The notes: generated by a model from the sequence alone, not told the origin. A stretch of 63,924 nt of DNA, filler included, from Hausera hauseri (GCA_046269625.1; 10 parts of 10 records of this genome joined end to end with filler, not necessarily neighbours in it), one strand, 5' to 3'. Positions 1,288 to 46,630 are shown, counted from the whole stretch's first letter. Numbers and translations are program-made.

Positions 1288-1329
1288 TTAGGGTATTTCT
1301 AGCTCTCTTTCATGTATGAAATTGTTTTA

Positions 1330-4300: not shown

Positions 4301-4477
4301 AGTCCGTTTCTAAGAGGTTTCGGTATGAATTCGATCACACTTTTATCTGGGAATATCATTCTGGCGTGTATGACCATTCTAGAAGTGAGTGGTATTTTCT
4401 CAACATGTCCTACCCAAATGTCTGTTTTGTTGTAGTTAGGGGGTTTATCTTCATTATTTGGACAAATTGATCCTGAT
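1330..4477 (-). pseudogene. pol: Gypsy pol (RT-RNaseH-integrase), frameshifted
   Basis: LDLQSGFWQIPV, KTAF, PFGLK, SYIDDILI (RT); FTDHKAL, RLQRWKL, ADSLSR (RNaseH); HDSHLAGH...CKTC (IN zinc finger); YHPQCNG; GPY. Confidence 0.95.
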
Positions 4478-7000: not shown

Positions 7001-8900
7001 ATGATACAAAATATCTCTCCGAATAAAGGAAACAAATCCAGTTGGTTAATCAAGTTGCTGACGATAATGACGCTATTAAAGCAGTTAGGAACAGTTACTG
7101 TATATGATTGCGATAAGTTCAAAGTGGGTCAGAAATATTCCTTAATAAACCTAGAAACATGCGAAGATGCGAGACCTCACAAGCTCGAGACAGCAGAAAA
7201 AAGATATATTATATCAACAACGTGAATTAATCGCAATGAATACAACGGAATGCATGATATAGAGATCTCGCACGGGCATTTTTCAATAATCAAACCAACC
7301 ACACCATTGATTCCGATGAATATGGATAGACAGCACTGTTTAGGAGCCCGGTTAACTGGTAGAATGGTTTGTGAAAGTATGGAATTGGAAGCTCAAGAGA
7401 GAAAAATAATTAGAGCTTACAAAGTTGCAGTAAAAAAATTAAACATGCACTGTGTCGAAGGAGAATATGACATGAAAATGAATAGGAGGAGGAATAATAG
7501 TTGTAGATTTTTACGAAACCAAGTTAAGATCTCTAAAGGCAATGTTTCATAGCGTCACTAAACTAATTACCGAAAATCAAAAATGTCACATACAAGATGG
7601 CGCTTGTACGTTCCAAAGTTCAGTCGTGGTATGGAGCCCACTTTCTAAGAGAGATAGCAATTTCATCAAAATCAAAGAGTTAAAGTTTAATAAAACAATA
7701 GGAAAACGTTATACAAATAAATTACACACAAATATTAGATTGCGGGAAGATGTTATAGAACATTCCACACCGACGATATTGATATCGGACGCACACGGAT
7801 TGAAGTTTATTAGAAAAGCTTAGCTAACGTGTTGCGATTTAGTGATGTATACCACAAATTACGAAGCATTTTTCGTAGCAGAAACTGAAATCAACATGAA
7901 AACATATGACTTAAAAACACAAGATATTATCGGATTGAAGATTACTTCAAAAACCGAGACGACTACTTCTATTACAAAGGACAGACCGAAATAGTGGAGT
8001 TATATCACAAAATGATAACAAATAACTGCAGATTAGATACTGAAGTCATGGGAACCAAACTGGCCTTAATTTATGCCAACCCAGAATTGGCATCACCAAT
8101 TATATCAATGAAAAGTGTTTCCGGACAAGTTAGTGGGGAAATCCTATTAACCGACGAGTGCGAGAAAAGAGACGTACCGATTAACGTAGAAGAGAAAAGA
8201 TGCATGCAAAAATTACCGGTCATCTATGAAAATATGCCGAGAATAGCGATACCACTCACCAGAGTATTATTGGCGAACTCAGCCGAACCAACAATACTAA
8301 AGGAATGCAAAACGAGCTAAGGCGAAACCATGTTCCGACGTAGTGGAACCGACTGGATAAGTCTATCTAATGGAGGTGTTGCCACAGACCCTAGTAAGCT
8401 AAATGGGACAAATTTAATAAACGGATTATCAGAAGAGAAGTTTGAAGACACGGCCAATAAAGGAATTTATAGACCAAAGGACATAGAAATCTATAGGCAA
8501 TTCTTAGCTTTTCCACGGCAACGAACCTCTGAGCTAAATCGGGTCATGTCAATGGTCATGGACGACACCCGCTTTCAAGAAAAATGGAAATCATTACTTG
8601 GCGCTAACCGCTATCAAAGAGTAACTTTAGAAATATTGTATAAGATTTGGGGAAGATTTCTGATTTTCGGACAAGCTGCATCGGGATTCCTAGCCATATA
8701 CTTCTTAGTCTAATTAGTTAAAGCAGTAATCCAAGCTGTTATAAACGGATATGAAATATTCACATTAACAGGATTTCTCTGAAAAATTTTGACTGCAATT
8801 ATCACCCCCGTCGGGAAAATGCTCAAGGCCTACGAAAAAAACCGATGGAAAAATGACGTGGAACGCCAATTCTCAATAGACGTAAAAATAAGAAAATAGT
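7001..8900 (+). pseudogene. env: Env-like class III fusion glycoprotein, chuvirus G-like
   Basis: Signal peptide then VTVYDCD...YSL..LETC; NCRLDTEV...LIYANPE...GEILL..C...RCMQKLPV.Y...PLTRVL; GIY...FLAFP...LN; WGRFLIFGQAASGFLAIYFLV TM and a second hydrophobic stretch. Confidence 0.8.
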
Positions 8901-9429
8901 AACACAAAAGGATGATTCAGACGATGACGAGCCTAAGGGAGGAGAAGGGAATCCTAGAACAAAGATGCATAGGATGTACTCGGTGATAAACACACCAATA
9001 CCCATCCTGCCACTAACTACGACAATATATGAAGACTGTGACCAAAAATCAGTTGTGTCGTACAGGTCTGACATCTGCCGCAAACACATTGACTATGAAG
9101 ACCCTTATGAAAAGACGAAACAATATGGGGTACTACGAAAAAAGAATGTCACCAACTAAGGATTAATAGAAAACGATCACGGAATATTGTACTCAAAAAG
9201 GATACCGCGTCACATAGAATCAAAATTAACGATATGGGAGTACCCGAAACTGTGTTCAATTTCGGGTTCACTACCCCAGGAACCGCTCATTGACAGTCGC
9301 TTTACTGAAATAACAAATAACTACTTATACCCGAACGGAGAATTGAGACAACTAAGGCAAGTATCATTTTATCGCCAGAGATAACAATAAATGGACATAA
9401 AGCCTCTACCACAAAGCAGTCAAAGACAG

Positions 9430-12400
9430 CGTCAAATTGCCGTGGGACAGTATTAGAAGGAAGACCTTTGTCGAAAATACACATCGAAGATTGGGAAGTG
9501 TATGCATTAAACGACGCAGGATCAGAAAAGTCGTATATAAAATACGAATCGATACTGACCACACTGCGGAAGCAACTATGTCCACAATTATCATCAGATC
9601 CAGGTAGCATAGGAGCATTTGGGCAAGTATCAAAGCCGAAATATAATGAACCCCTACCATTTATATAATGGGCAAAACACTTCAACATGAATTTGCAGTA
9701 ATGGATCAATTAATAGACGATGTAGTATTAGGTTGTGATATATTGAAACGGATACCGGGCATGGTAATCGATGTACATGACGGAAAGTTAGTTGAGCTCG
9801 AACCAATAAAAGGGACAAAAGTAACAAAGGAAAGGAAATCATGCGAAGTATGGATTCTGGTAGACGAGGATATTCCGACCAGAACCAAAATGATAATTTT
9901 TGCACAGATTCGTTAAAACGAAGATCTGCCGGTGTATTTCGAGCCTCAAGAGAATATCGATCCAAACCTTATGTTTAGCAACATTCTATGTAGAGTAGTA
10001 ACGGGGCGAATATCTATCAGATTAGTGAACAGTGCACCAATCCCCGTAAGATCGCACGCTAACACTACTTTAGGTCACACTTGCAGAGTATCAGCAATAA
10101 CGATAGAAAAAAAGCCATATAAGTGCGCTGAGTTTCCACCTCACGTTGAAACCAAATTCTCTCCGGAGGCGTATTGCAAATTTTACGAATTACTATGCAA
10201 AAACCGTCCGATAATCGCACAGAATGAGGAAGATATATGCAGAGCAAAAGCCCTAAGATCAACAATCCCATTAAGGAAGAAACCCTGTTCGAATGATGAA
10301 ATCCATCTAGAAGAACAGAAAATGCCCAAGTGGTATCCACCTCCCCATTCATTGAGACCGGAAATAACTAAAGAGGTAGAGCGAATATTAAAGGTCGATA
10401 TAATTCGACCAAGTTACCGATCTTGGTACTCGCCTATGCTTATGGTCAAGAAGAAAGGAACTACAAAACATCCATTTTGTATAGATTACCGGGTATTAAG
10501 CACACTGATGATGAAAGACTCGTTCCCCCTACGGTCAGTAAAGGAGGCTTTAAACAGACTATAAGGGGCGAAATGGTTTACCACTCTTGACTTACAATAT
10601 GGATACTGGCAAGTAGAAATCAAAGAAGATCGATATAAGACAGCATTTAAAACACACGATTGCGTATATGAATTTAATGTTACGCCTTTCAGCATCACTA
10701 CAGAACCAGCTATTTTTACTATAATGATGAATAAGATGCTTATTGGACTTGATCATGCTTTCCCGTATTTGGATGATGTAATGATAGCATCGAAAACAGA
10801 AGAAGAACACTTAAAAGACATTGAGGATACACTCATGCGACTAGAACAAGCAGGATTGAAACTAAATTCAAAGAAATGTAAATGGGCACAGAACGCAATA
10901 TCGTACCTCCGACACATAATTGGAGAAGGAGGATCAAAATCGGATAAATTCCTGCTGGATAAAATATCCGATTGTATGGAACTGCAGAATCAAAAAGAGT
11001 TAAGGCATTGGTTGGGCCTATGTGGGTATTATGCTACTTATGTACCGGACAAATCGAAAATTAACGCACCACTATATTGCCTACTGAAAAAGGGAACTAA
11101 TTGGAAATGGAAGGAAATGGGGCAAAAATCATTCGATGAAATGAAGAAGATTTTCACGAGCGAACAAGTCCTAAGATACCGGATTTTAATCTACCATTCA
11201 TCATTAAAACAGATGCAAGTAAAGAAGGCATAGGATACGAATTAGCTCAAAAGCGAGAAGATGAAGAACTAAAACACCCAATGGACTATGGAGGACGCCC
11301 GTTAAAGAAAGCAGAAAAGAATTATTCGGTTACCGAATTAGAAACGTTAGCCGTGAAGGAAGCACTACGACACTTTAATATCTGTCTATGGGCAAAAGAT
11401 TATAATAGTGACCGACCACAAAGCAGTTACGACATTAAAAGGACGAGCTAATAACCCAACATGTAGATTAAACCGTTGGATCGAAGAAATCTCAAGATAT
11501 AACATTGAATTCCAATACAAACCAGGTAGTAAACACGTCGACGCCGACGCACTATCAAGGTTAAAGACAAAAACAAGTGGGATTACCACAATGCAGAAAA
11601 CGCAACTCGAACTAATAATTGAACGTCAAAGAAGCCTAACTCTGGATAAAACGATCAGGATCACCGCAGAGCAAGCTAAATATAAGGTTATTCAGCAAAT
11701 TGTTGAGTTCGCACAAAACGGCAAAATACCCAAAAAGACGACAACTGAAGAAGCATCTACAGAAACACGGACATAAATACCGCGCATCGAACCTAGATAA
11801 TATTCTATATTACGAACGAAAAGGAAGAAGACTAATAGTTATTCCAAAAGGATTACAAATCGAAGTACTCATGGCCGAGCATTGGCCAAGCATTTATATC
11901 GATGTAAAGAATTGGGTAGGCACTTGCGAAGTTTGCGCGACAAAGCAAAGGAAAACAAAAGGCTACGTAGCAGAATTAAAACCCATAAGCGTACCAGATA
12001 GGCCCATGCAAGCTATGTCTATGGATATAGTGGGACCTTGCCTAAAACGCACAAAAATAACAGATATATTCTAACTTGCGTGGATCGGTTAACGCATTTC
12101 GTCGAACTGGTGACACTATTGGATCAAAAGGCAGAAACTTTAGCCGACGCAATAATAAGGAAAATCATCTGCAGATACGGACCACCAGAACAAATCTTAA
12201 CGGATAGAGAAAAGAACTTCACAAGCGAATAATTCGCAAAAATTACCAAGATATTCGAAATCAAACGTTTAACCACTACCGCGTACCACCCTCAATGTAA
12301 TGGAATGGTCGAACAAATGAACGCAACAGCCATTCATATACTATCAACAGTAGTGGCCAAAGACCAAAAGGATTGGGACAAATTCCTAGAAGGGACACAG

Positions 12401-12870
12401 TTCGCAATCAATACGACCCCACATCCAGCAACAGGATTTACACCATTCTTTATGATGTATAGACGAGAGGCAATCTTACCCATGGATCTAGGTATGACAC
12501 CGTACGAAAAGAACATCGAGGATCTAGAGCAAAACTTTTCCGAAGTCTTGCAGATAAGATTGCAAGTGTTGGGAAGTTGCTAAAACATTATCACTCGAAT
12601 ACCAGGAACAATTTAAAAAAAAATATGATAAAAAGACTAAGCCCCATGATTGGGTTTATATACATTACCCAGTCGCGAAGAAAGGTACATCCTTGAAATT
12701 AACCCGTACCGGAAGAGGACCATATAAAATCGTCCGCACAACGCCAACCACGGTCTATGTTAATAAAAACGGTAAAGAGGAAGTCGTATCAATCCAAAGA
12801 GTAGTTAAAACAGATATAAGACCAGCTAAACACTACAATTTAAGACAGCGAAACGCCAAGACCTTGTCGA
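9430..12870 (+). pseudogene. pol: Gypsy pol (PR-RT-RNaseH-IN), frameshifted
   Basis: ALNDAGS (DTG in the sister copy at ~50000) and VLGCDIL; FCIDYR, LDLQYGYWQV, YLDDVMIAS; TDHKA, DADALSR; MDIVGP, TDR, YHPQCNGMVE, GPY. The IN zinc-finger His region carries a short deletion near 11880 relative to the copy at ~18020. Confidence 0.95.
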
Positions 12871-12879
12871 TAATCACTA

Positions 12880-14301
12880 GACCGGTATCATACGCACAGA
12901 TAATAGTAGACTTATCGTTGATTGCTGTCCTAACGCCTAAGTATAACGCACAATGGTGGGTCGATGAAACTTCGTTGAGCGATATATATGGAATCAAGAA
13001 AATCAAATTAAAACCTTCACCGCCAAGGGAGGGAACTTCTGAATACAAATCGGAACAAAAAGACGAAAAATTTTTATGAGCAATAAAATTAGATTATTTT
13101 TCGCCAGAAGCTCCATGTGTAGGGTTTAGGATACCAGGACCATATGAGGGGCAAATCCAGATACTATTCCATGACCTATTAAACCAAGCCGAGTCTGATT
13201 GTAAATTCGAGCCAGAAGACGATACAATTTGCTGCAACTTAAAGTACGGACACACTTACGCCCTCAGTTATCGTTTATATTTGTCAAACTGCAATAATGT
13301 GCACGCCGAAATAAACCTGAATTCACGTTTATTTATACCACGAACTTATGGAGACTACCTTAATATAGAGCTAGAAAACATGCTCCAGTCCACCGATCCA
13401 ATAAAACGGATGCTAGAAGAAAATATAGCTAATATAACGGAAAACCAAAAGGACAACTGTATCCAAATAAACACAAAAGGACGGTTAATTAAAGGACGAG
13501 TAAACACGATTCAATTTATGAGAGAGGACAAAGCAGCTCATAATCAACAGTACTGTCAAATTGACGCCGGAAGGCCGAATAAGTGTTGTAAGTTACCTCA
13601 AAGTTATAAATATAGAATTCGGTTAGACTTATATGAAGTTCGACCGAACCAGTCGAGTATTTACCTAGGAAGTTATCAATTGGAAAGCCCAATTGGGAAA
13701 ACTCCACCTGAGATGACAAAAAGCAAAATTACGACTACAAAAACGAATATGACCACTTCTACATCCACCAAAATCATCCAAACAAGTGGTTTGTCTCAGA
13801 AGAATCTGGAAACGATTCCTATAAAATATCGGACACAGCAACATAAAATAACATTCATTGTGGAAGAAGCACTTAATTATGACATAGAAATAAGCTGCCA
13901 AACATTACATAATAACCAGAAAGTAACACTGGCTAAAGGTACCTATCAAATCAAATGTACCTACTTGAAACCCAAAACAGACTACATAATACAAATAGGT
14001 GCAGAGAACAGACAAAGTAGAACGCTTACGGTACGGACCCTAAACGAGATTGTCTTAACGAAACCACTAACTAACAAGGAAACGGAAGACAAAACTACGA
14101 CTACCACTAAAACGAAAAACCTAACTAAATGGACAACTCTCAATAATATTGATTATTGGATCGTCAACGTTTGCTCTCATAACTTTTGTTGCGTTTTTCC
14201 GATTTATTACCAAAAACTGCTGTAATAAGCGTCATAAAATCACCGAGAGGGAATTAAGGGTAATGGTACCGCAGGATGGAATCAATTATGGAGTAACCTG
14301 A
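12880..14301 (+). pseudogene. Integrase-fused type I membrane protein (signal peptide, two Cys domains, Thr-rich stalk, FN3-like domain, TM, short tail)
   Basis: YAQIIVDLSLIAVL in frame with IN; PCVGFR...ICCNLKY; CIQI...YC...KCCKLP; TTTKTNMTTSTST; YLKPKTDYIIQIGAEN...TVRT; hydrophobic segment ~14140-14210; ends ...YGVT-TGA. Confidence 0.72.
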
Positions 14302-14307
14302 CAATTA
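14299..14307 (+). promoter_or_regulatory. Putative stop-codon readthrough signal TGA-CAA-TTA (stop-CAR-YYA)
   Basis: Same context (TGA CAA CTA) at 20471-20479 and 45318-45310; matches the tobamovirus-type stop-CARYYA motif. Confidence 0.55.
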
Positions 14308-14384
14308 CAGGTCGGGTTATTCCACCATAAAACAAAGAATTGGTTCAGATTTAGAACAATACTTTGTTATAGGATATAACCTTA

Positions 14385-14399
14385 TTTTTTGTCTTTCAG
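14385..14399 (+). promoter_or_regulatory. Putative splice acceptor (polypyrimidine-TTTCAG) just before the ORF4 ATG
   Basis: TTTTTTGTCTTTCAG-A-ATG; equivalent TTTTTCAG at 20564-20571 and at 45238-45228 (minus). Confidence 0.55.
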
Positions 14400-14980
14400 A
14401 ATGGTAAGTACAGATAGCCGCATTAGTATCGACGAGTATTTACGGAGACAAGTTACAGTGTTTATTTCGAACGCAAAATCTATCTATAGAAGGATAACTG
14501 AAGCATTGCAGGCAAAAACCTATGCCGAATTTTCGAAAACCAATGAAATTCCCAATGATCTAAAAGGTATTATAGAGGAAAATCGCACAGTCTTCCTTTA
14601 CGCAATGCGCGAAGGTAACCAAGATAAAGCATATTCCCTAAAGGAATTAATCCGAAACAGACTAGCCAAAATTCAAGACATACATCCATTTAGCCTACGG
14701 AGAAATATATTATAGAATAGAAAACCAACCCTGGAACTCCAACGAAGGACATCAATACCGGTTCAGTACATTTAAAATAAATGGAAGAGGTTTAGAACAT
14801 ATCAATTACAGCCTAGAATTTAGAGTAGCTGCCCTTCCTGTCAAACTTATGATCGCAGTGACCTCCAGAGAAGATTGTAACTTACAGTTGCCGCCCTTAG
14901 AATTTGAGCAAATTCCAACTGAAACAGAAAAGGATGAACATCACCAATCATATAGACTAGTCTAAGACGGTCGCAACGTA

Positions 14981-15470
14981 AGAATCATCGCGATAAACTG
15001 TGGCAGAGAAAATGATGGATATGGAATACCCATAGAAGTATCTATTAGGGAGAGAGACGGGATCGAAATATACTCTACAATCATAAATCCCCGAAAACGT
15101 GTCCAAGAATCGTATGCGGAAGTGACCGGTTTAAGGAAAAAGCAGCTCACAGGAGGAAAGGACATTAAGCAAGTCCGTTCAGAATTGGATCATTGCCTTT
15201 ACGGTTGTATGTTAACAGGATATAACGTGCAACGATCAATCCAGCTACTAGAAATATCCGATGCAAATATTGCCGGAATAAGGGAAATGGCCACTCACCC
15301 AATAATCCAAAAACAGATGGAGAGAACCGTGCAAGGAAGAAATCATGCACGACCAACCGCTCCAAAAGTCTTCTTTAAGTTAATGATCGAAGCAATGAGC
15401 AATGACTCGAGTAGAATTCAAAGACTTTTAACGGCTAGCCAACGCTCCAAATATTTGAAAGAAATTTATA
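14981..15470 (+). other. ISG20/REX4-like DEDDh 3'-5' exonuclease fold lacking its catalytic acidic residues
   Basis: RIIAINCG...EVSI...IYSTIINPRKRVQESYAEVTGL...L..G.DIKQVRSEL...L.G.MLTGY...IREMATHP...ASQRSKYLKEIY tracks the REX4 pattern VA.DCE...RVSI...YVKP...V.DYRT..SGI...ILVGH...D...RDT...H.SVEDA.A.M.LY. Confidence 0.65.
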
Positions 15471-16463
15471 AACCATTAAAGTGGGAACATGAATGGGTCC
15501 CTAGAAACCCCTTATACAATTTACGCAGTTCCCTGAAGCCCGAACAAATAGATACAAGATATAGAAGGAATATCAAACTCTACTCTCCGACCAGAACTGT
15601 CCAGTCGATGGGCAGGCATAGTCTTACGATCGCCGTGCTAAAACCTATGGAAGGACAAGAGGAAAATAAAACGGAATTACAAACGATCGAAAAAGGAAAC
15701 AAAATACTCAATAGAACGTCAAAGTCTCTAGAAGAAAACAAAGAAGAACTGAGGCCGGAAACAATAATAAAGAAGCAGAAATTAGAAGAAAAGCCCCAGT
15801 CCAATAAAACGCAATCTATTTACAACTACTTATTCAAGAAAAAAAGAAAAGACGAGAAGCTAAAAGATGAAAACCAACAAATCGAACCAAGTACCTCTCA
15901 GAAGGTCAAATCCGTAGAGAAAAAAATCAGTGAACCTATGATAACCGAAGTCAATGTCCTTTTAGGAAAAAAGACCGAAAGAAATGTCCACTGTAAAACA
16001 ACTCAGGACTCATCAAGAATGTTAATAACCACAGAATATTGAAGTAAGAAAATGATTAAGGAAGCTATGTTCTATATCAAAGTTGTCCCAGCAAGAGAAG
16101 TTTTCGAAAACACTTATGTATGGGAAAATCCTAAGTTGGGAAATTACATTACCTCCGTCTTCCGCTCAAAAAGAACGGGAAAGTTAATAGTACCAGTAGG
16201 TAAACAAATCCGGATATTACTAAAAAAAACAGTATCAACGATATCGAGTAGAAAGGAAGATCCCGGATTTAGACCAAGACTTTATGGTGGATTGGACCCT
16301 AGTGCAAGTAAGCTGCGATCAAAGAAAAAGTTCCATTAACCCTAAGCAGAAGGTAATTCATGGATACCTTTATCAAGACGGGGATGGTCTTATATTCGAG
16401 CCTATTGAATTAACAATCCAAGTTGACTTAGATCGAGATGATTGGGACAAGGAAGAAAATGAA

Positions 16464-16593
16464 TGCCGTGTGCGATGTCAACCTGAGACAAGGCTATGTG
16501 GTCTTGGATAACAAGATTTGCCGCCACAAATACTGTCGGGATTGTTTGGAGAAGTGGACACTCGACAATGGAAAAACAACATGTCCGGTATGT
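16464..16593 (+). other. C3HC4 RING finger (frameshift within the first Cys pair)
   Basis: C.VC...CRHKYCRDC...W...TCPVC; intact in the copy at 43706-43840. Confidence 0.88.
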
Positions 16594-16815
16594 CGAGCGG
16601 AGGCTACGGATCTGGAATATTATTCTGATGGAAGTTACACCTGAGTCGTTCGTATTAAGCCCTACCACAGTTATGATCTAGAGACGAACCCTTTAATAAG
16701 CCAAACCAACCGGATTCCCAAACTGATTTACGAGAGAGGATGGATCGATTAAGGCGACCAAGGACATTAGGCGCCACCTCTTCTGACGCAATAGGCTCCT
16801 TCGAGGATGCCGCTC

Positions 16816-16827
16816 AGGGAGCAGAGA
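16816..16827 (+). promoter_or_regulatory. Polypurine tract
   Basis: AGGGAGCAGAGA followed by TGT; equivalents at 23117-23128 and 43494-43483. Confidence 0.8.
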
Positions 16828-17336
16828 TGTAATAAACCAGATTATGATTGGTGAAAATATTTTTAATTCAGACCGTAATGATTGAAATGTAAATGTAAAT
16901 TTATTTATAGGTTATTTATGAAATTGTCGGCTCATTTTAGAATAGTACTAGAATATGCGATCGTTTATGACTAACAAATAATTGTAAAAATATTTATGAT
17001 TGAATTGTAATGCAAAAGAATGCAAATATATTTAGAAATATTGTAAATAAATTAATGGAGTTCCAGACTTGCTACTATATAAGCAGATTCTAAAACGACC
17101 AAATTGAACCAGATGTGAACAGGTTAACCAGTTGTTGACCTTAAAGTCAGAATCAAATCGAATTGTGCTAATTGACGATATTAGTTATATTCGGAATTAT
17201 TCGACTACTCCTGACGTGTTATTTCTTGTGTGGAATAATGAAGGTTATTTGTATTTTGTCGTTAATATTCCCTATATAGTTTGCATCGTCTCTTAAAGAT
17301 GATTTGACTACATTAAGGGTAAAATCAGAATTAATC
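16828..17336 (+). repeat. 3' LTR, truncated by the contig end
   Basis: TG start after the PPT, AT-rich, TATATAA box near 17076. Confidence 0.75.
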
Positions 17337-17436: not shown

Positions 17437-19080
17437 AAGAAAGCCGAAAAGAATTATTCCGTTACTGAATTAGAAACCCTAGCCGTTAAAGAAGCACTTC
17501 GGCATTTTAATGTTTACATATACGGACACAAAATTATAATTTTTACTGATCATAAAGCCGTCACGACTTTAAAAGGACCAGCAAATAATCCGACGTGTAG
17601 ACTTAACAGATGGATTGAAGAAATTTCTAGATACAATATCGAATTTCAGTATAAACCTGGAAACAAGCACGTAGATGCTGATGCACTGTCGAGGTTAAAA
17701 ATTAAGACGAGTACAATTACTGTTATGAAGAAAACTCAGCTCAAGGAAATAATAGATCGCCAACGTGCCATAACACTGGATAAAGCAATTAAAATCGCAG
17801 CAGAACGAAAAAGGATAAGGTTATTCAGCAGATTATAGAATTTACAAAAAGGGACATCATACCAAAAGGATGACAACTAAAGAAACAGTTACACCGGAAC
17901 GGGCATAAATACTGTCTTAAATGGCAAAGGCAATGAAGATATTTTATATTACGAACGAAATGGAAGAAAATTGATAGTTATTCCAAAAGGTTTACGAACC
18001 GAAGTTTTAATGGCAGAACACGACTCATATTTAGCAAGACACATGTCATGGAAAAAGACATAGGAAAGTATATAGAATAAATACTTTTGGCCCAGTATCT
18101 ATATTGATGTGAAGAACTGGGTAAATGCTTGTGAGGTATGTGCGACTAAACAGAAAAAGACGAAAAATTACATGGCGGAACTGAAACTAATCAACGTACC
18201 AGATAGACCCATGCAAGCCATGTCAATGAATATCGTAGGACCCATAAGAATAATAAATATATCTTACCCTGTATTGATCGTCTAACTCATTTTGTCGAAT
18301 TTGTAGCTTTGATTGACCAAAAGGCAGAAACTTTGGCGGAGGCTGTAGTGAGAAGAATTATTTGTAGATATGGACCTCCAGATCAAATATTAACAGATCG
18401 AGGAAGAAATTTCACAAGTGAACTATTTGAGAAAATTATTAAAATATTTGAGATTGAGCAGTTAACTACTACCGCATACCATCCTCAATGTAATGAAATG
18501 GTTGAACGGATGAACGCAACCGTCATACGCATATTATCCACAGTGGTAGACAAAGACCAAAAAATTGGGACGAATTTTTAGAAGGAACTCAATTTTCCAT
18601 CAATACTATACCACATCCAGCGACAGGATTTACACCGTTATTCATGATGTATGGACGTGAAGTTGTATTGCCCACAGATTTAGGAATGACACCATACACA
18701 GTAAACCCCGAAGAGTTAGAACAAAATTTTGCAGAAGTGCTACAGACACGACTACACAAATGTTGGAAAATTGCCAAAGAATTATCGCAAGAATATCAAG
18801 AACAGTTTAAAAGCAATATGATAAGAAAGCGAAGTTAGACGATTTAGAACAAGGAAATTTGGTTTATATTCATTACTCAGTAGCTAAGAAAGGTACGTCG
18901 TTAAAACTGACTCGTACAGACAGAGAACCGTATGAAGTTGCTAAAGTTACGTCAACTACGGTGCACATCAACAAAAATGGAAAAGAAATCATATCAGTAC
19001 AGAGAGTCGTTAAGACAGAAATACGGCCCAATAAACGTTACAACTTACGACAACCCGAGACAAAAACTTCTTCAATAATT
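17437..19080 (+). pseudogene. pol: RNaseH-integrase portion of pol
   Basis: NYSVTELETLAV, TDHKA, DADALSR, HDSYLARH...CEVC, LTDRGRNFTS, YHPQCN.MVER. Confidence 0.95.
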
Positions 19081-20473
19081 ACTAGACCGATTTCATACGT
19101 TCAGATAGTTTTAGTACTGTCGTTAATTGCTTCGTATATCCCAAAGGCACAAACTCAATGGTCGGACGACGAAACTACGCTAGAAGACGTATATGGAATC
19201 CGGAAGAGCGGATTAAAACGGAAAACCGTCGTAGTGGAAAAGAAGCCAACGCCCGAAGAAATCCAAAAACCAGAAGACAATTTTTGACAAACAATGAAGG
19301 CTCAATACTTTTCGCCAGATGCTGTGTGTCGGATTCAAACTCGGAGACCACATCACGATTTTGGGAAATTCCAAGTAGTGATGCATGATAAGGCAGGGAA
19401 CGAAATCAAAAACTGTGATTTCGAACTAGGAGATTATACACAATGCTGTGACGTAAACTACGGATGCACGTAAATCCTTAATTACCAATTAAATCTAGCA
19501 GACTCACCTGAAGTCTACGTAGAAGTAGACCCAGAGCTCCAATTAATTATGCCAACATTAGCCCGACGATTCGAAATAAAACTCGACGAAATGCTACAAT
19601 CCACCGACCAAAATATAAGGCGATTAAATAAAAATATCAAAGGGATCTCAGTTAATAATAAAAAACAATGCATCCAAGTAGATGCTCGAACGGGATTAAC
19701 TCTGAGTCAAGAAATTAGCATTGTTTTCGAAGCAGTAAACGGAAAACTCCGAAAATAGAATACTGCTCTGTTCATGCCGGTGTGCAACACCTGTGTTGTA
19801 AGCTACCAGTAAACCAAGAATTCAAAATAAAATTTGACTTATATGAAGTATGACCGAATAAACCGAGCAAGCACTTGCGAACGTATTATCCAGAAAATAA
19901 AGTATGGAGAATTTCAATAGAAACGACGACCAAAAGGCCGACCACTCGAGTTAGTACCATTATGAAAATCGTTACATCAAGCCGTGTACCCAAAAGAGAA
20001 TTAGAAAGTATACCTATTAAATATTCGGCACACCGATTTAAAATTGTGTTCTTCGTAGAAAAACTAAATTACGATATACTTATAAGCTGCCGAACAACGT
20101 ATAATAATCAAATAGTAACATTATTTAAGAAGACTTACCAGACAGAATTCAATTTGTTAAAACCACAATACGATTACATAGTACAAGTATATGCAGAAAA
20201 TAAGCAAAACCAAACAATTACATTGCGTACCTTAGATGAAATTCGTGCAGAATCGCATATATACGAAAACAGACGATGAAATCACAAGCACCAATGGGAT
20301 TAACCATTTTACCGATCGTGTCCACTTTTGTACTATCAACATTTTTTCTCATTATATTAATTGCGATTTTTCGGTTAGTTGCCAAAAATTGTTATTCTAA
20401 GCGTCCTAAAACTACAGAATGGGAATTAAGGGAATTGAAAACCCCTATCGGTCCATATGATAAAATAACCTGA
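19080..20473 (+). pseudogene. Integrase-fused type I membrane protein
   Basis: YVQIVLVLSLIASY signal; Cys domains; NLLKPQYDYIVQVYAEN...TLRT FN3-like; TM ILPIVSTFVLSTFFLIILIAIF; tail ends YDKIT-TGA. Confidence 0.75.
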
Positions 20474-20587
20474 CAACTACAAAGCTGGTTATTCTATCAT
20501 CAAATGAAGAATTGCTTTTATTTCTAGACCATCCCTTATTGTAAGAGTAATCCTTACTGTTTATTTTTCAGATTAAAGAGTATTCAC

Positions 20588-22950
20588 ATGGCCGAACGAT
20601 ATAGTATCGACAACCAACCAAAAGGAACCAGTCAAAAACGTCGATATAGTATCGACGAGTTTCTTCAGAAATATGCCGCCGTCTTCCTCCCAAATTCCAA
20701 GTCCATATATCGAGAAATTCATAACGAATTGCATGAGAAAACTTTTGTGAAGTACGATCAGATTAGTAGAATTCATAACAATCTAAAAGGTATTCTGGAA
20801 GAAAATAGAACTGTCTCTCTCTACGTCATGCGAGAAGACAAGGACGCCCGAGCATACACCCTCAAATATTTATATCCACCTGGAGGACAGTGAGATATAC
20901 TATCGATTCAAATATCAAGAATGGAACGCTAAAAACGAAAGGTAATACAGATTTAACATCCTTAGCCTACGTAGCGGAAATTTATAGCACTATGAATTAG
21001 AATTTCGAGTAGCCGCCCTTCCTGCAAAATTGATGTTCGAGGTGACTTGCCACGATTACCCCTATATCCAACTATCACCTTTGAAATTCTATCAACAACC
21101 GTCAGAAAAGCATTTGGACACATTCTTACAATCGTGTAGACTAGTGCAAGATGCCCGAAATACAAGAATCATAGCAACCAATTGTGGACAAGGGAATGAC
21201 GCGCAAAGGATTCCAATGGAAGTCTCAATGCGAGAAACAAGAGAAACAGAAGTATATTGTACGATTATTAGCCCGCGAAAACGCGTTCGCGAGACATACT
21301 ACGATACGACAGGAATTCGCAAAGAAACGCTTCCGAGAGGCAGAGACATCAAACTTGTCCAGGCAGAGTTAGAACACTGCTATATGGATATATCCTAGCT
21401 GGATATCGTATCGATAGGATTATCGAGCTCTTAGAGATACCCCGCTCAAGCATCGTAGGAACGCGTGAGATAGGGACACACCCAGTAGTCGCCGAACAGA
21501 CTAAACGAATATTGCGAGAAAGAAATTACCCTATGCCAAAAGTTATGGATGCCTATTTTAAGTTAATAGTTGACGCCATGAACAGCGAACGCGTTAAGAT
21601 TAGCAAATTGTTGACTGTAAGCCAACGTACCCAATACTTACGCGATATTTATGTAGCTTTAAAATTGGACCATGAGTGGACACCCAGTAATCCAGAACAA
21701 AATTTACGAAGTCCATCAAATCCGGACACTATAAGCAAAAAGTATCGGAAGCAGTATCGTTCGTATTCCCGTGCAGAGTCGTTGAAACTATGGGACAGGA
21801 CGATATCAAAATAACTATTCACAAATCAGATAGAATGAGTACCGATTTTCCCAGCACCAGTCGTAGTTCTCATACTAAATCTAATTTACCCATCAAGAGA
21901 CCAAGTCCAAAACAGGAATCAATAATAAAGGAAATAACCACAGTTGAGACCTTTAAGGTTCCACAAGTTCCCCAAAAAAGACAGAAAATTAAGATACAAA
22001 CTCCAGCAGTTAAAAGAAAAACATCCTTCTAGGAATACTTGTTTAGGAAGAAAAACAAAGGAACGAGCTCAACCCAAGTACAAGAAGACCGAACCAGTAA
22101 AAGGAACGAAGAACCCGAAAATTCAGAGATAGCAAGAAAAATTCCAACGACATCTGCAAATAACCTGACGACAATTCAAGTTCCAGAAAAACCCAAGAGA
22201 TCGATACAGAAATACAATGACCCAAAAGGCCGATTTATACAGCTATTCACGGAAATAAATTCGCTTAGGAAAATGAACTCTCAGGTAGATGTACATTTTA
22301 CAACAACTAAAGATTACCCAAAAATGCTAGTAACTACCGAATATTATAGTCACAGGAAAATCAAAGAAGCCATGTTTTTCGTAAAGATGACACAAGCAAG
22401 AGAAGTTTATGAAAACACCTACATTTGGGAAAACTCTAAAATAGGAAAGTATATCGCCCCCATCTTTTAGTCGAAAAGAAAAGGCAAGTTAACCGTACCA
22501 GTAGACAAACAAATAAAAACCTTGCTAAAGGAAAAATATCAGAGGTATAAAAATGATGGTTAAATTCCCGATTTAGATCGAGATACCACTGCTGATTGAA
22601 TATTAGTACCAGTAGTTTATGACCCTAGAAAAAGTTCCGTAAATCATAAGCAAGATAATCCATGGTTACCTATACCAAGATAAAGAGGGTCTCATATTCG
22701 AACCCATCGAACTCATAATAGGAGTAGATTTAGACAACGAAAAATGGGATAAAGAAGAAAATGAATTCCCAGTATGTGAAGCGAATCTCAGTCAAGGATA
22801 CGTCGTTCTAGACAACCGCGATTTCCGACATAAATATTGCCGAGATTGTTTGGAAAAATGGACTCTAGACAATGGAAAAACTACATGTCCCGTGTGTAGA
22901 GCCGAGGCGACCGAATTAAAATATTTTTCGAATGGTAGTTATACCCGTGT
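20588..22950 (+). pseudogene. ORF4 (inactive DEDDh exonuclease fold ~21165-21655; RING ~22765-22897)
   Basis: RIIATNCG...EVSM...IISPRKRV...TTGI; RHKYCRDCLEKW...TCPVC. Confidence 0.72.
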
Positions 22951-23128
22951 AGTCCGAAAAAACCCCATTACAGTTATGAATTGGAAACAAATCCCCGAGA
23001 AACTCAGCCAAATACGGACTCAGAAGTAAACTTATATCGACGGACAAATCTCCTAAGACAACCACGATATGGCGTCACCTCTCCTGATGCAGTGGGCACA
23101 TCCGATGATGCCGCTCAGGGAGGAGAAA

Positions 23129-23726
23129 CGTTGTAAAGATGTCCAATGTTGTAAGATGTCCAGAAATTGTAAATACTGTTATAAGCAGCAAATACTGTTA
23201 TTGTAAATAATTATTATTTTATGATATTTTCTCATTAATGTACAAACTTAGGAATTTGTACAAATATAAAGAAGGAAATTAGTAATAATTCGGTATATTT
23301 TTAGAATTTTCGGAAAAGGCGTTGAATTTATATTAATTTTTAAATCTGAAAAATCAGTTAAAAACTGTTTATAATTCTGAATAATCAGTCACGTACGCAG
23401 TACAGTCTTGTATATATACAGCAGAAAAAGAAATTAAAAATTGTTGAGAAGTCGAAAAGTATTAAGAAGTATTGAGTTGAGAAATTAAATTGATAATTGA
23501 AAACCTTTTGAAGCCAGATTTGCAAGTTGCTAAGGATCATTGAAGTTGGGAAGCAAATTCAGATTGAATTCGAGAAAACGACTGATTTGGTTCGATACTG
23601 TGGTGTATCCAGTAATTGTTTTGTTGTAAAATATACTTATTATTTTAAAATTCTTATATAATTTTTCATTGCCCCATAAGGGTGATTAGACTACACGAAG
23701 GTCTAAAATTCTACGGTAAATTAACA
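23129..23726 (+). repeat. 3' LTR (~600 bp)
   Basis: Follows PPT AGGGAGGAGAAA; starts CGTT (TGTT with a T>C change) and ends TTAACA; TATA-like box at ~23411. The right end is inferred. Confidence 0.65.
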
Positions 23727-23927
23727 TGGTTAAGACGATAATTTTTGTTAACATTTTGCACAGAACCACAAGCGAGTACCAGTACTACTGATTAAACTAT
23801 TTCTTATAAGGCACAATCTGTCTAATCAATAACGATACACCTTACTTGTATTAAGATACTCAAATCTTAAGTGTAATTATTGTTATATAGTGGGAGTTGT
23901 ATAAGGGCCACCATAATATATAACATT

Positions 23928-23945
23928 TGGCGACCCTAGCAGGAC
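23928..23945 (+). promoter_or_regulatory. Primer-binding site of another LTR element (tRNA-Arg-like) directly after an LTR end
   Basis: ...ATATAACA-TT-TGGCGACCCTAGCAGGAC; TGG start 2 nt after a CA end. Confidence 0.6.
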
Positions 23946-24197
23946 AGATTAGTGCCTCGTTAGACTTCAGCTGAAAGTTAATTAAAACGACATACCGGCG
24001 ATGAGCGCCACTCAGATTTAACCGCCTTTGAGCGAACCGATAAGTTTAAAATACCTCTTGTGAAAACTCAAGTTAATAAGGTAAATTTTACGACTAANNN
24101 NNNNNNNNNNNNNNNNNNNNNNNNNNNNNNNNNNNNNNNNNTTAATTAATTAANNNNNNNNNNNNNNNNNNNNNNNNNNNNNNNNNNNNNNNNNNNN

Positions 24198-31256: not shown

Positions 31257-31287
31257 GATCGATAGTGCACCCGGAGCACTATCGATC
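31257..31287. repeat. Perfect 12-bp hairpin
   Basis: GATCGATAGTGC-acccgga-GCACTATCGATC. Confidence 0.85.
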
Positions 31288-43649: not shown

Positions 43650-45217
43650 TTTATGGTCCGGTTAGTTTTGCCATTAGCAAAATACTGTAACTTCGTTGCT
43701 TGTGCTCGACACACATGGCATGTCGTCTTACCATTTTCTAACGTCGAGGTTTCTAGGCAACTCCTACAATATTTATGCCTGCAGTCGATGTTTACTAGAA
43801 TCAGGTGTCCTTGCTTTAGACTTGCTTCACAAACAGGGCACTCGTCGTTCTAGTCATCTAGGTCTACATCCGCCACGATTCCGATATGCTCCATAACCAT
43901 ACCTTTTCGATCTTGGTGCAGGTACCCAAATAACCCCTTTTGCTTAGGGTCGATTGAATTCCTCTAGGCCATTTTTTACGGCAGTTAGGGTCCATTCGAC
44001 GACGTCTTGTTTGTCGAGGTCCAATATACCCGTTTGCTTGTATTGCCTCTTCATTTGTATTTTCACTTGGTTGTCTACGGGTACTGTTAATCTTTTGTCC
44101 AAATTTTTGAACGAAAAATGGGCGCCAAATATCTCCCTTCTCTGGTATGTTCATTTTTGAATTTGTCGCTTGGGCACCATGTGCACGTCAAAGAGGGCCT
44201 CTTTAATTTTCTCGTGGATAACATATTCCGTCATTACTAAACTTTTAGGAAATTCTGTGATTTGGCCGACTTCTGAGGACTTCTCTATTTCTCTAGGCAC
44301 GCTGGTTTTCCTTAGGACGTTTGCTTCGGTCGTTCTGGTTTTCGGCGTTATTTTCCTCGCTCTCTGGCAGCTAGATCGGAATAAGAGATCTTTGTCCTTT
44401 TTGTTCCTTGTTTGTCACTGATTTTATACTTCGACCGTTTAGGGTGTATCCTGGAGGTCATCGGTCGTTCTGTCTTAATCATCCTGCGTAATTGGGGTTA
44501 TGTAGGAGCTGGTACTACGATCGTTGTTTTTGGTTTTTATTCCTATTATACTTTCGAAGAAAGAAGGTTTAGACTTTCCTGTTTCCCTCTCGGTTGCTTT
44601 TGTCTCCCTTCGATTGTTTGAATAACGCTCTGATATTTCCGGATATTCGGACTTCCCTGATGGTTTGACGGTGGTTGCTGCTTTGCAAAGAATTCTTTGT
44701 TTTACTGCACGGTACGAGGAGGGCCTTCAGTGGTCATTTTTTCAGTTACTATGGTGACTTGAAAATGATTACCCTCTCTGGGACTCATTAGTCGCTTCTG
44801 GGAATAAATGTAGAATCCTCGCCGGTATTTTTGATTTAGTTTTGTTGTGTTGGTTGAACTTTGGATATTTTGCTTTGGGTTTACTGGTGACCATTCGTGG
44901 TCCTATCATAGAGATGTATAGATGTTTCTCACGTACTAAGTTCGTTGGCATAAGTTCGTTTAGGGCATATGTTCGGGCGTCTGAACTTTTTTCAGAGTTT
45001 AGTCGAACTATCCTCTTTTCTTGGGTAATCCATTTCAGGATGTTTGGTATTTGATTTTCTTGGTTGATGTCGATGTACGATTCTTTTTTTATTCCGCGTT
45101 AATTTGTCGATAAAAACTTTTTGATGGGGGAGTATATACGGTGGCATGTTGGAAAGAGTCTTTGATATCAAAAATTGATCTGAGATCTGATTCCGTTTTC
45201 TCCGCCTTTTCGGCCAT
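43650..45217 (-). pseudogene. ORF4 with an intact C3HC4 RING (43706-43840) but without the exonuclease-like domain
   Basis: CPVC...CRHKYCRSC...TCHVC; the N-terminal domain joins DHEWSPVNP directly near 44930. Confidence 0.7.
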
Positions 45218-45315
45218 ACTTACGTTTCTGAAAAAAAAGTTAAGCCTAAAACAGATGATTGCTTTAAAACAAAACATTCGCTCTTTTGATGACAGGATTA
45301 CTTGATCTGTAGTTG

Positions 45316-46630
45316 TCAGGTTATTCTATTATAATTGTCCTCTTGGTACTTCTATCATTTACTCCTTTGTATTTTTATGACGCTTAGTATGTTTTTGTAA
45401 GCTATAGAAATAATAGCAGTTTCCATTATTAGAGCAAACATTGACAAACTCAAAGATAGTAACATCGGTACACTTATTAGTTCGGTTGACTTCCGTAGTG
45501 GCTTGTTTCAGTAGTAGTATCTTTACGCGATTCTGCATAATTTTCGCTTAAGGTTCGTAGTGTAAAAGTTTTACCTCTTTTGTCTTCTGCGGAAATTTGG
45601 ATAATGTAATCAAATATAATTTCATAATTATTTCTTAATATTACGACTTGACTACGATGTAAAGTTCGACAATTAATTTTGACATCATAACTTAGTTTTT
45701 CTTCAACGAAGAACACGATGATATACTGCTGAGCCAAGTACTTAATAGGTATGTTTTCTAATTCTCTTAGGCATTTTACTTGAGGTGACGGCTTTATTAG
45801 TAGTAGTTGGTTTTCTTATACTTATTTCGAAGGGCGGTTTCCATATTTGTTCTTCTGGATAATAGCTTCTTGGGTAAATACTCAGTTTATTGGGTCGAAG
45901 TTTATATATATCGAAATGTGTTTTATATTCGTGACCAATCGGTATTTTACAGCGCTGATTAGGTCTTCGATCTCCAACGTAGAAGTTGTTCGCCGGAAGG
46001 GTTGACTTCTTTAATTTGAACTGAATGGAGATTTGTCGCTTGTTAGTTTTTTCTTGGTTTTCATCTGGATACATCCCTTTCTCATGTCCTTACAGATCCA
46101 ATTATATTATCATCTAACATGCTTTTGCGGATTAGTGGTTTGAATCATCTGAATCATCCTATTCATTCGACTCTGAATTGGTATAATTAACCGAAATCGT
46201 CGGTCAAATTCGGGTTGAATTCCATGTATGTTTTGATAGTACATTCCAAATATGTATATATAGGAACAGCCATAATTTACTTTACAAAACCACTTCTGAA
46301 TTCCATGTGGGAAGTTAATTTCATCCAATAGTGATATCTGAAATTTTACGGACTTTCTGACAGGTTTACTTGTTTCGAACCAAACACAGCACTTTCTGAT
46401 CCATATTGCATGCTTTAATGGATTGTAAACTTTTTATATCAATTTGCTTCGCGGCTTGTTCCTCCTTTTCGGCCAACCTTTACTGTATTTTACTCTTACG
46501 AATTCCATTTATATCTTCCACTGAGGATTCATCCCGTATCCATTGGGTTTTTACTCTCGACATATATGAAGCGATTAATGATAGTGCTAAGATTATTTGC
46601 ACATATGATATCGGTCTGCAATTATGGAAG
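45316..46630 (-). pseudogene. Integrase-fused membrane protein
   Basis: YVQIILALSLIASY signal; FCKVNYGCSY; DYIIQISAE...TLRT; TM; tail YNRIT-TGA. Confidence 0.72.

What the first reader, a model, noticed from the sequence alone, without database searches (positions are those of the whole stretch)
14299..14403. Conserved stop-CAA-YTA readthrough context linking the membrane protein to ORF4
Seen: all three copies end the membrane protein with ACC-TGA-CAA-(T/C)TA-CA although flanks diverge. The ORF4 ATG is in frame 99 nt (here) and 114 nt (20474-20588) downstream, and 98 nt in the third copy. The linker translates similarly (QLQ..LF.H..KN.F.F.TI), and its extra stops fall at different codons in each copy (14377, 20525, 45300). 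Established: stop-CARYYA is the tobamovirus-type leaky stop. Inference: a minor readthrough product would anchor the pseudo-nuclease/RING to the membrane as a long cytoplasmic tail.
Basis: partly seen in the sequence, partly recalled or inferred. Interest (0 to 1): 0.7.

Follow-up and report, generated by a model that had tools for sequence, protein, structure and literature searches.

The report
Probable leaky stop in invertebrate retroelement
Three decayed, related virus-like jumping genes from an animal genome keep a plant-virus-style leaky stop signal inside an RNA hairpin just ahead of a strong splice site, so the next gene is probably made mostly as a free protein by splicing and in small amounts as a membrane-anchored extension; the read-through itself is inferred, not shown.

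Summary
Three related, decayed gag-env-pol Ty3/gypsy elements share TAACC-TGA-CAA-YTA-CA: 15 of 16 columns identical, the best window in 2.1 kb. It follows a transmembrane segment and matches stop+CAR-YYA; the spacings and extra stops are as stated.

(1) The linker ends in the strongest splice acceptor of each element's sense strand, and the first ATG after it is in the ORF4 frame in 3 of 3. Splicing is probably ORF4's main route.
(2) The stop lies inside a 12-14 bp hairpin, clear in two copies and weak in the third.
(3) The three ORF4 ATGs lie at different offsets from the acceptor. Two database relatives are open in frame into the linker and have no Met for 35-44 codons after the acceptor-equivalent position.

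An open, coding linker is not established: all three copies carry a stop (likelihood ratio 1.2-4.7) and the codon signal is borderline (P about 0.05). ORF4 is a jelly-roll domain, a catalytically dead ISG20-like domain and a RING.

Best reading: spliced soluble ORF4 plus a minor read-through, membrane-anchored form (0.55). New variant of a known kind; interest 0.5.

The parts
7910..8713 (+). Pieces of a class III (Monjiviricetes/gB-type) fusion glycoprotein lying between the gag-like region and pol (gag-env-pol order)
   Evidence: PF24664, E 6.6e-12 and 3.7e-11
10565..12900 (+). pol in pieces: RT, RNase H, integrase
   Evidence: RVT_1 and RT_RNaseH hits; integrase read from motifs (label recalled)
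12860..14301 (+). ORF3, in frame behind integrase: signal-like hydrophobic segment, Cys-rich ectodomain with a possible FN3-like part, TM, basic stop-transfer residues, short tail ending at the TGA; broken by a stop at 13077 and a frameshift near 14125-14225
   Evidence: Frames; hydropathy 1.44 signal-like and 2.41 TM; Atlas FN3 leads at 0.86, a lead only
14294..14309 (+). Conserved stop block TAACC-TGA-CAA-TTA-CA (UGA + CAR-YYA)
14287..14329 (+). Hairpin A: 5' arm upstream of the stop, 3' arm at +16..+30; the stop is at the top of the stem and the CAAUUA hexamer mostly in the loop
   Evidence: z -5.9, rank 1 of 234 windows; 12 of 12 pairs with a 3-nt bulge; three-way alifold rank 1 of 138
14302..14400 (+). 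99-nt linker in the ORF4 frame, with one stop at 14377; may form a 3' stem-loop B (14314-14382), tentative
14376..14399 (+). Branch-point-like TAAC, polypyrimidine tract and CAG 3' splice acceptor; the exon would start at the third base of a codon of the ORF4 frame
   Evidence: Rank 1 of 357 YAG sites on the element's sense strand; branch-point label recalled
14401..16832 (+). ORF4 in pieces: double-stranded beta-helix domain, catalytically dead ISG20/DEDD-like domain, low-complexity spacer, C-terminal RING; ends in TAA at the LTR start
   Evidence: 38-61% identity to intact relative P0004 in 4 HSPs; fold of P0004; RING E 2e-08
16815..17336 (+). Polypurine tract and start of the 3' LTR (TG at 16828), cut by the contig end
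   Evidence: Read (labels from general LTR-element knowledge)
20457..20590 (+). Second element: hairpin A, TGA 20471, 101 nt to acceptor CAG 20569-20571, ATG 20588; linker stop at 20525
   Evidence: z -4.35, rank 3 of 234; acceptor rank 1 of 211
45215..45332 (-). Third element: TGA 45318, 91 nt to acceptor CAG 45230-45228, ATG 45217; linker stop at 45300; hairpin A weakened (10 of 14 pairs)
   Evidence: rank 45 of 234; acceptor rank 1 of 243

Best explanation
The TGA is the true, selected stop of the element's long upstream reading frame (pol followed by the type I membrane protein ORF3), and it is a programmed leaky stop of the CAR-YYA type. ORF4 has two routes. Most is made as a soluble protein from a spliced subgenomic RNA that uses the acceptor at the end of the linker. 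On unspliced RNA a few per cent of ribosomes decode the UGA, cross the 33-codon linker and continue into ORF4, which hangs the jelly-roll/dead-nuclease/RING protein on the cytoplasmic side of the ORF3 membrane anchor. The hairpin must be melted by the arriving ribosome, so it cannot be a classical 3' stimulator; it more likely sets the level of read-through or of acceptor use, possibly by competing with a 3' stem that covers the branch region. SHOWN: conserved stop and hexamer, hairpin complementarity, acceptor-like site and its phase, TM hydropathy, ORF4 domains. INFERRED: read-through, splicing, topology, any switch, all functions.
For: Block conservation far above flanks, including silent third positions of codons -2, -1, +1, +2. 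The hexamer fits CAR-YYA: chance 0.0028 from composition; 6 of 1678 sense-strand stop triplets have it, 3 being these sites. Most of the hexamer lies in the loop, so pairing does not explain its conservation. UGA followed by CAA-UUA raised read-through to 5.8% in vitro and 10.1% in cells in an alphavirus cassette (PMC3159437 passage). No CpG depletion (o/e 1.04-1.19), so the shared TGA is not CpG decay. No indel between elements 1 and 2 over the 101 nt. No stop is shared at any linker codon among the 3 copies and 2 database relatives. P0004 and P0005 run open 18 and 22 codons upstream of the acceptor-equivalent residue and a further 35 and 44 codons to their first internal Met (chance of the downstream stretches about 0.10 and 0.055), so in them translation seems to enter the ORF4 frame from upstream. 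Acceptor ranks first in 3 of 3 elements; first downstream ATG in frame in 3 of 3.
Against: All 3 linkers contain an in-frame stop. That pattern alone is more likely for a non-coding linker (0.015) than for a coding one with the measured decay (0.003-0.011); adding the two open relatives gives a likelihood ratio of only 1.2-4.7. Codon signal element 1 vs 2 is borderline (P 0.045 synonymous, 0.051 BLOSUM) and not significant once the motif is removed (0.14, 0.11). Only 1 of 4 comparisons with element 3 is nominally significant, while 31 of 34 coding control blocks (HSP-selected, so biased) reach P of 0.01 or less. The stop is UGA and the codon before it ends in C, whereas tobamoviruses have xxA-UAG. 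The 3' stem-loop B is not significant. The splice route removes the need for read-through. The open stretches after the acceptor in P0004/P0005 are also explained by in-frame splicing. No DNA of an intact element, no transcript and no fused protein was found.
Confidence: 0.55

Rival explanations
1. Splice-only: ORF4 is made only from a spliced RNA, the linker is the 3' end of an intron, and the conserved block is the loop and stem of a hairpin with another job (protein binding, packaging, export or splice control); its fit to CAR-YYA is coincidence.
For: Acceptor first-ranked in 3 of 3; in-frame ATG first after it in 3 of 3, at non-homologous positions; a stop in every linker; weak codon signal; hairpin A is the best-folding window; extra ORFs of LTR elements are typically expressed from spliced messages (PMC5408684 passage).
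Against: Needs the conserved loop to match stop+CAR-YYA by chance (0.0028 for this motif, more if other leaky contexts are counted) and the linker to keep frame by chance; P0004 and P0005 are open upstream of the acceptor (chance 0.31 and 0.215 in simulation).
Confidence: 0.25
2. The stop is leaky by selection, but the point is RNA stability: low read-through clears the 2.5-kb apparent 3' UTR of the unspliced genome and protects it from nonsense-mediated decay; the fused protein is a by-product under little constraint.
For: [quoted passage not shown]
Against: No direct evidence; it still predicts selection for an open frame, so sequence cannot separate it from the best explanation.
Confidence: 0.12
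3. ORF4 starts at an AUG inside or just after the linker, by reinitiation after the TGA, internal entry or an internal promoter, with the hairpin as the helper element.
For: Element 2 has an in-frame ATG at linker codon 11 (20504), about where the predicted start of P0005 aligns.
Against: Elements 1 and 3 have other codons there; database starts are gene-caller choices and may be GTG/TTG; it leaves the acceptor and hexamer unexplained.
Confidence: 0.05
4. Chance or decay: an ordinary stop with flanks that happened to stay alike, or a sense codon that decayed to TGA three times in a once-continuous frame.
For: The copies are related and decayed; neighbouring decay stops do occur (13077 in element 1, 19285 in element 2, at adjacent codons).
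Against: Best 16-column window in 2.1 kb; no CpG depletion; elements 1 and 2 have 10 and 13 stops in 1612 aligned codons and share 2, one being this TGA.
Confidence: 0.03

Closest known systems
Type I read-through signal (tobamovirus replicase; benyvirus and pomovirus coat-protein extensions), UAG-CAA-UYA / CAR-YYA (PMC3159437, passages and Discussion)
   Same: Stop followed by CAA-YUA; nucleotide conservation from about codon -1 to +3; in benyviruses and pomoviruses it appends a long C-terminal domain to a structural protein.
   Different: UGA not UAG; ACC not xxA before the stop; stop enclosed by a hairpin with an upstream arm; animal retroelement; a splice acceptor 100 nt downstream gives a second route.
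SIRE1 (soybean Sirevirus, Ty1/copia): env-like ORF by stop-codon suppression after pol (seen in passages of PMC2194720 and PMC2829016; its TMV-like context is recalled, the original paper was not read)
   Same: LTR retroelement that expresses a 3' extra ORF by reading through the stop of the pol-containing frame.
   Different: Copia in plants versus gypsy in an animal; in SIRE1 only a stop separates pol and env, here a 99-nt linker with an acceptor follows a membrane protein and the extension is a cytoplasmic pseudo-nuclease/RING.
GAG-ENV-POL errantiviruses with gB-type ENV of Nematoda, Bryozoa and Platyhelminthes (PMC13524379)
   Same: Gene order gag, class III fusion glycoprotein, pol.
   Different: The main text has no occurrence of readthrough, read-through, exonuclease, RING or fibronectin; ORFs after pol are not described there. 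Placement in their tree was not tested.
Bdelloid rotifer Vesta/Juno LTR elements with DEDDy exonuclease ORF3 (PMC5408684, passages)
   Same: LTR element carrying a DEDD-family extra ORF; extra TM ORFs also occur in those lineages.
   Different: There the catalytic residues are intact and no read-through is mentioned (0 occurrences); here the acidic residues are lost and a jelly-roll domain and RING are attached.
Carmovirus/umbravirus recoding elements with competing active and inactive folds (PMC10602861 passages; TCV details recalled)
   Same: An upstream hairpin that includes the stop may compete with a 3' stem.
   Different: Here the 3' stem is statistically unsupported and no long-range pairing was tested.

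Membership tests
Type I (CAR-YYA) read-through signal | Stop followed by CAR-YYA | tested here: met
   CAA-TTA, CAA-CTA, CAA-CTA in 3 of 3
Type I (CAR-YYA) read-through signal | Stop is generally UAG, preceded by A | tested here: not met
   ACC-TGA in 3 of 3 against xxA-UAG in tobamoviruses; UAA variants exist and UGA-CAA-UUA works in a reporter (PMC3159437). This lowers membership, not 'works like'.
Type I (CAR-YYA) read-through signal | Silent-site conservation around codons -1 to +3 | tested here: met
   15 of 16 columns identical over -5..+10; only three sequences, and the 5' part also lies in a hairpin stem
Type I (CAR-YYA) read-through signal | Open in-frame coding sequence 3' of the stop | tested here: inconclusive
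   One non-homologous stop in each of 3 decayed linkers; 2 relatives open from about codon 15 and 10-11; likelihood ratio 1.2-4.7
Type I (CAR-YYA) read-through signal | Measured read-through that depends on the hexamer | not testable with these tools
   Needs a reporter, ribosome profiling or mass spectrometry
Type II read-through signal (UGA-CGG/CUA plus 3' stem-loop) | UGA-CGG or UGA-CUA | tested here: not met
   UGA-CAA in 3 of 3
Type II read-through signal (UGA-CGG/CUA plus 3' stem-loop) | Conserved 3' stem-loop after a short spacer | tested here: inconclusive
   Predicted in context only for element 1 (0.87 vs 0.01 and 0.00); 19 of 26 pairs kept in element 2, P 0.046, but 10 of 51 control windows do as well
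SIRE1-type pol/env stop suppression | Copia element with pol and env separated only by a stop | tested here: not met
   RT-RH-IN order (gypsy), env upstream of pol, 99-nt linker
GAG-ENV-POL errantivirus (Metaviridae-like) | Gypsy pol order with class III fusion glycoprotein between gag and pol | tested here: met
   PF24664 at 7910-8713, RVT_1 at 10565, RNase H at 11140; gag and integrase read from sequence only
GAG-ENV-POL errantivirus (Metaviridae-like) | LTRs, PBS, PPT | tested here: inconclusive
   PPT and LTR start in 3 of 3, LTR end with PBS-like site in element 2; no paired LTRs on these contigs
GAG-ENV-POL errantivirus (Metaviridae-like) | Placement in the errantivirus RT tree | not tested
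   No reference RT set on hand; a motif look-up in the supplements of PMC13524379 found no close match (cells over 400 characters are cut)
Active DEDD 3'-5' exonuclease | DEDD/ISG20 fold | tested here: met
   Model of P0004 residues 243-419 vs ISG20 1wlj: Z 15.8, rmsd 2.4, 145 aligned; profile hit to ISG20L2 E 3.6e-29, carried largely by the active relatives in the alignment
Active DEDD 3'-5' exonuclease | Catalytic acidic residues (ExoI D-x-E, ExoII D, ExoIII D) | tested here: not met
   ExoI D-x-E is present in 6 of the 8 distant relatives aligned but replaced in P0004 and P0005 and in elements 1 and 2; the ExoII and ExoIII positions are not acidic in P0004 as aligned
Selenocysteine UGA (SECIS-dependent) | SECIS or other known RNA family | tested here: inconclusive
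   Rfam over 14150-14500 gave 4 weak matches, all below gathering score; the 3' end of the element was not scanned

The most novel reading that the evidence does not exclude
An animal gag-env-pol errantivirus uses one 130-nt RNA element as a translation-coupled switch. A hairpin encloses a CAR-YYA leaky stop; the arriving ribosome melts it and frees its 3' arm to pair over the branch-point region, forming a read-through-stimulating stem. The same RNA thus balances a spliced soluble form and a read-through membrane-anchored form of a dead-nuclease/RING ubiquitin ligase, the latter acting at the membrane or in particles.
Probability: 0.15. Interest if true: 0.8.

Novelty: new variant of a known kind. 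Interest (0 to 1): 0.5.

Why it matters
If true, it extends the plant-virus CAR-YYA read-through signal to an animal envelope-bearing gypsy element, at a new kind of junction (membrane protein to accessory ORF). It would show one ORF made in soluble and membrane-tethered forms by splicing and recoding, and it points to an accessory module (jelly-roll, dead ISG20-like domain, RING) and a second membrane protein after pol that the errantivirus survey read here does not mention. It is cheap to test with a 150-nt reporter cassette. Searches of the held library found no paper with readthrough+retrotransposon+CARYYA, none with all of stop codon readthrough, LTR retrotransposon, metazoan, env, spliced, and one fungal-element paper for CAR-YYA+retrotransposon; subscription journals are mostly not covered. 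If only splicing operates, the finding is an ordinary accessory-ORF junction with a conserved hairpin.

Tried and rejected
Homologue searches for ORF3 found nothing: none of 1310 candidates at near length and none of 126 at 973-2775 aa using the integrase end and signal segment. Both are weak negatives, and a polyprotein above 2775 aa was out of range. A search with P0004 returned only itself among 4979 candidates.

CpG decay as the source of the TGA: rejected. The block as branch point plus acceptor (CTGAC...CAG): not favoured; element 2 lacks the CAG, there is no pyrimidine tract, and several AGs lie between it and the main acceptor. A second conserved stop at the pol/ORF3 boundary (13077, 19285): rejected; adjacent but different codons, and element 3 has sense codons at both. 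The 3' stem-loop B: 3 of 3 double changes between elements 1 and 2 keep pairing, but P 0.29; registers were chosen by hand; kept only as a lead. Amino-acid likeness of the P0004/P0005 N-termini to the linker (9 of 19 for P0004, E 7.2 against the window) was not counted, as nucleotide-level likeness would give it too. tblastx HSPs with element 3 were off-frame at the stop, so shared-stop counts with it were not used; its 22 of 562 stop rate is inflated by out-of-frame stretches. Troyka elements: rejected, they encode no envelope (PMC12440569, abstract and one section). Rfam: no family. A 3-mismatch look-alike of the block at 31744 (-) lies in another context and was treated as chance.

Full report
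SETTING. The window is ten contigs joined by N spacers. Three carry related LTR elements: element 1 (4578-17336, +), element 2 (17437-24097, +) and element 3 (51449-42219, -), 65-79% identical in their BLAST-aligned parts. Element 1 reads gag-like region, class III fusion glycoprotein (PF24664, E 7e-12 and 4e-11), RT, RNase H, integrase, then in the integrase frame a signal-like segment, an ectodomain, a TM and a short tail ending at the TGA, then ORF4 up to the LTR. This gag-env-pol order with a gB-type env is described for errantiviruses of nematodes, bryozoans and flatworms (PMC13524379; abstract, passages, first part of section 5 and three supplement look-ups seen). All three elements are decayed by stops and frameshifts. 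The host is an animal by inference (P450-, forkhead- and kinase-like pieces read, labels recalled); I did not identify it.

OBSERVATION. The conserved block is TAACCTGACAAYTACA: 3 matches against 0.01 expected. Three-way identity is 0.93 over -3..+10 against 0.31-0.55 in the eleven flanking intervals. It is the best 16-column window of 2299 columns and is equalled once in the far better conserved RNase H-integrase region. CpG is not depleted (o/e 1.04-1.19), so a thrice-decayed CGA is unlikely. Elements 1 and 2 have 10 and 13 stops in 1612 aligned codons and share two, one of them this TGA. It is a real, selected stop.

THE HEXAMER. CAA-YUA after a stop is the type I read-through context. [quoted passage not shown] By composition the hexamer has probability 0.0028; 6 of 1678 sense-strand stop triplets in the three elements have it, three being these sites. 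The only variable base of the hexamer here is one the motif allows. Departures: UGA instead of UAG, and C instead of A before the stop.

The linker ends in a pyrimidine tract and CAG that scores first among all YAG sites of the sense strand in each element (1 of 357, 211 and 243; simple pyrimidine score). It lies 101, 101 and 91 nt from the stop and in the same phase of the ORF4 frame. The first ATG after it is in the ORF4 frame in 3 of 3, at offsets 1, 16 and 10; the ATG at 14401 is not homologous to the other two. ORF4 therefore very likely has a spliced message, as is typical for extra ORFs of LTR elements (PMC5408684 passage). No transcript data were available.

The window -20..+34 folds with z -5.9 in element 1 and -4.35 in element 2, ranking 1 and 3 of 234 windows; in element 3 it ranks 45. 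The stem has 12 of 12 pairs (with a 3-nt bulge), 13 of 14 and 10 of 14. Alignment folding ranks it 1 of 138 three-way, 1 of 151 for elements 1+2, 4 of 146 for 1+3, but 82 of 143 for 2+3. There is no two-sided compensatory change. Its 5' arm is upstream of the stop, so a terminating ribosome has already melted it. The freed 3' arm can pair with the branch-point region (+71..+83) in all three by hand-chosen registers. That stem is predicted in context only for element 1 (0.87, 0.01, 0.00) and is not significant against controls (19 of 26 pairs kept, P 0.046; compensatory changes P 0.29; 10 of 51 control windows as good). Competing active and inactive folds are known from carmovirus and umbravirus recoding sites (PMC10602861 passages). 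Rfam has no match above gathering score.

IS THE LINKER CODING? Mixed. For: no indel between elements 1 and 2; element 3 differs by 9 nt plus one base; the three extra stops are at different codons, where the other copies have sense codons. A search of 1.84 billion representatives with ORF4 gave 11 hits, two close. P0004 (870 aa, intact, from a 16.2-kb contig) and P0005 run open in frame 18 and 22 codons upstream of the acceptor-equivalent residue and a further 35 and 44 codons to their first internal Met; their predicted starts are gene-caller choices and the register rests on a short motif. Against: a stop in each of three linkers has probability 0.015 if non-coding but 0.003-0.011 if coding with the decay measured in ORF4 and pol (3 of 751, 7 of 637, about 10 of 1017 codons). 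With the two open relatives the joint figures are 0.0023 against 0.003-0.011, a ratio of 1.2-4.7. Differences between elements 1 and 2 fall 8/11/14 on codon positions, 8 synonymous and 16 not (P 0.045; BLOSUM P 0.051), and 0.14 and 0.11 without the motif; 1 of 4 comparisons with element 3 is nominally significant. For scale, 31 of 34 HSP-selected coding blocks reach P of 0.01 or less, but the two blocks over the TM and tail are as weak as the linker. The open stretches after the acceptor in the relatives show that translation enters from upstream, but in-frame splicing would do that too.

THE PROTEINS. Peak 19-residue hydropathy is 2.2-2.8 for the TM, followed by basic residues, 1.4-1.9 for the signal-like segment after integrase, and 0.5-0.6 for the linker. 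That fits a type I membrane protein with a cytoplasmic tail, so a read-through extension would be cytoplasmic (inference). The ectodomain has only an FN3 lead (0.86) and no sequence homologue. In the model of P0004 (mean pLDDT 48.5; confident mainly over residues 55-355), residues 243-419 match ISG20 (Z 15.8, rmsd 2.4, 145 aligned) and 51-204 match double-stranded beta-helix oxygenase folds (Z up to 9.8, rmsd 3.7). The ExoI D-x-E of 6 of 8 distant relatives is replaced in P0004, P0005 and elements 1 and 2, so the domain is a pseudo-nuclease in an intact member too. A RING is present in all three elements.

MECHANISM AND RIVALS. Best reading (0.55): spliced RNA gives soluble ORF4, and CAR-YYA read-through on unspliced RNA gives a minor membrane-anchored form, with the hairpin tuning one or both. 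Splice-only with a hairpin of another function: 0.25. Leakiness kept mainly to protect the unspliced RNA, with 2.5 kb behind the stop, from NMD, as reported for Moloney MLV and Colorado tick fever virus elements (PMC6277124 passages): 0.12. Initiation in the linker: 0.05. Chance: 0.03.

COMPARISON AND NOVELTY. It works like a type I read-through site but is not a strict member (UGA, no 5' A, open frame unproven, read-through unmeasured). Retroelement precedent exists: SIRE1 expresses its env-like ORF by stop suppression (passages of PMC2194720 and PMC2829016; original paper not read, its context recalled). Library searches found no report for an animal gypsy element; the errantivirus survey's main text has no occurrence of readthrough, exonuclease or RING, and long cells of its supplements are cut, so its sequences could not be compared. 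The DNA around P0004 and P0005, which would settle the linker question, stayed unchecked. Verdict: real feature, new variant of a known kind, interest 0.5.

Noticed in passing
window 12860-12960 (+); 19060-19160 (+); about 46620-46540 (-): A signal-like hydrophobic segment follows integrase in frame in all three elements, and the fusion glycoprotein's signal likewise follows the gag-side frame (6911-7225). The intact element may be one very long polyprotein that ends at the TGA.
   Followed up: partly
P0004 residues 51-204; window about 14430-14960: The N-terminal domain of ORF4 has a double-stranded beta-helix (2OG-oxygenase/cupin-like) fold, Z up to 9.8, with one conserved His; it is shared with relatives that keep an active-looking DEDD domain.
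   Followed up: partly
window 14371-14373; 20543-20545; 45247-45245 (-): A second AG in the same phase lies 27, 27 and 18 nt upstream of the main acceptor in the three elements, a possible alternative in-frame acceptor.
   Followed up: no
window 23131-24097: Element 2's 3' LTR (about 795 nt) is followed by a PBS-like site and a leader with a donor-like AAG/GTAAAT at 24078-24086: a tandem copy or a collapsed assembly, and a candidate splice donor.
   Followed up: partly
window about 14223-14243 and homologues: A second short block (13 of 16 three-way identical) covers the basic K-R-x-K residues just after the TM.
   Followed up: no
window 20504-20506: In-frame ATG at linker codon 11 in element 2 only, near where the predicted start of P0005 aligns.
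   Followed up: partly
window 31401-35920 (-): Gag-side and glycoprotein start of a fourth related element (65% to 6015-7231), with a CCHC zinc knuckle and a ubiquitin-like stretch (labels from reading the translation).
   Followed up: no
window 1-4477 (-) and 24198-31300 (+): Two further, more distant decayed gypsy-type pol regions; the first is followed by a 225-aa ORF (1287-610) with a hydrophobic N-terminal segment.
   Followed up: no
window 55640-59715 (-) and 52890-53327 (-): Pieces resembling a Polinton/Maverick-type DNA polymerase B region, plus two separate RING-finger ORFs (labels recalled from motifs, not tested).
   Followed up: no
window 42216-42704 (-), 41400-41789 (+), 38493-38837 (-): Host-like gene pieces: cytochrome P450 heme-motif exon with a canonical pyrimidine-CAG acceptor next to element 3's LTR, a forkhead domain and a protein kinase (labels recalled, not tested).
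   Followed up: no
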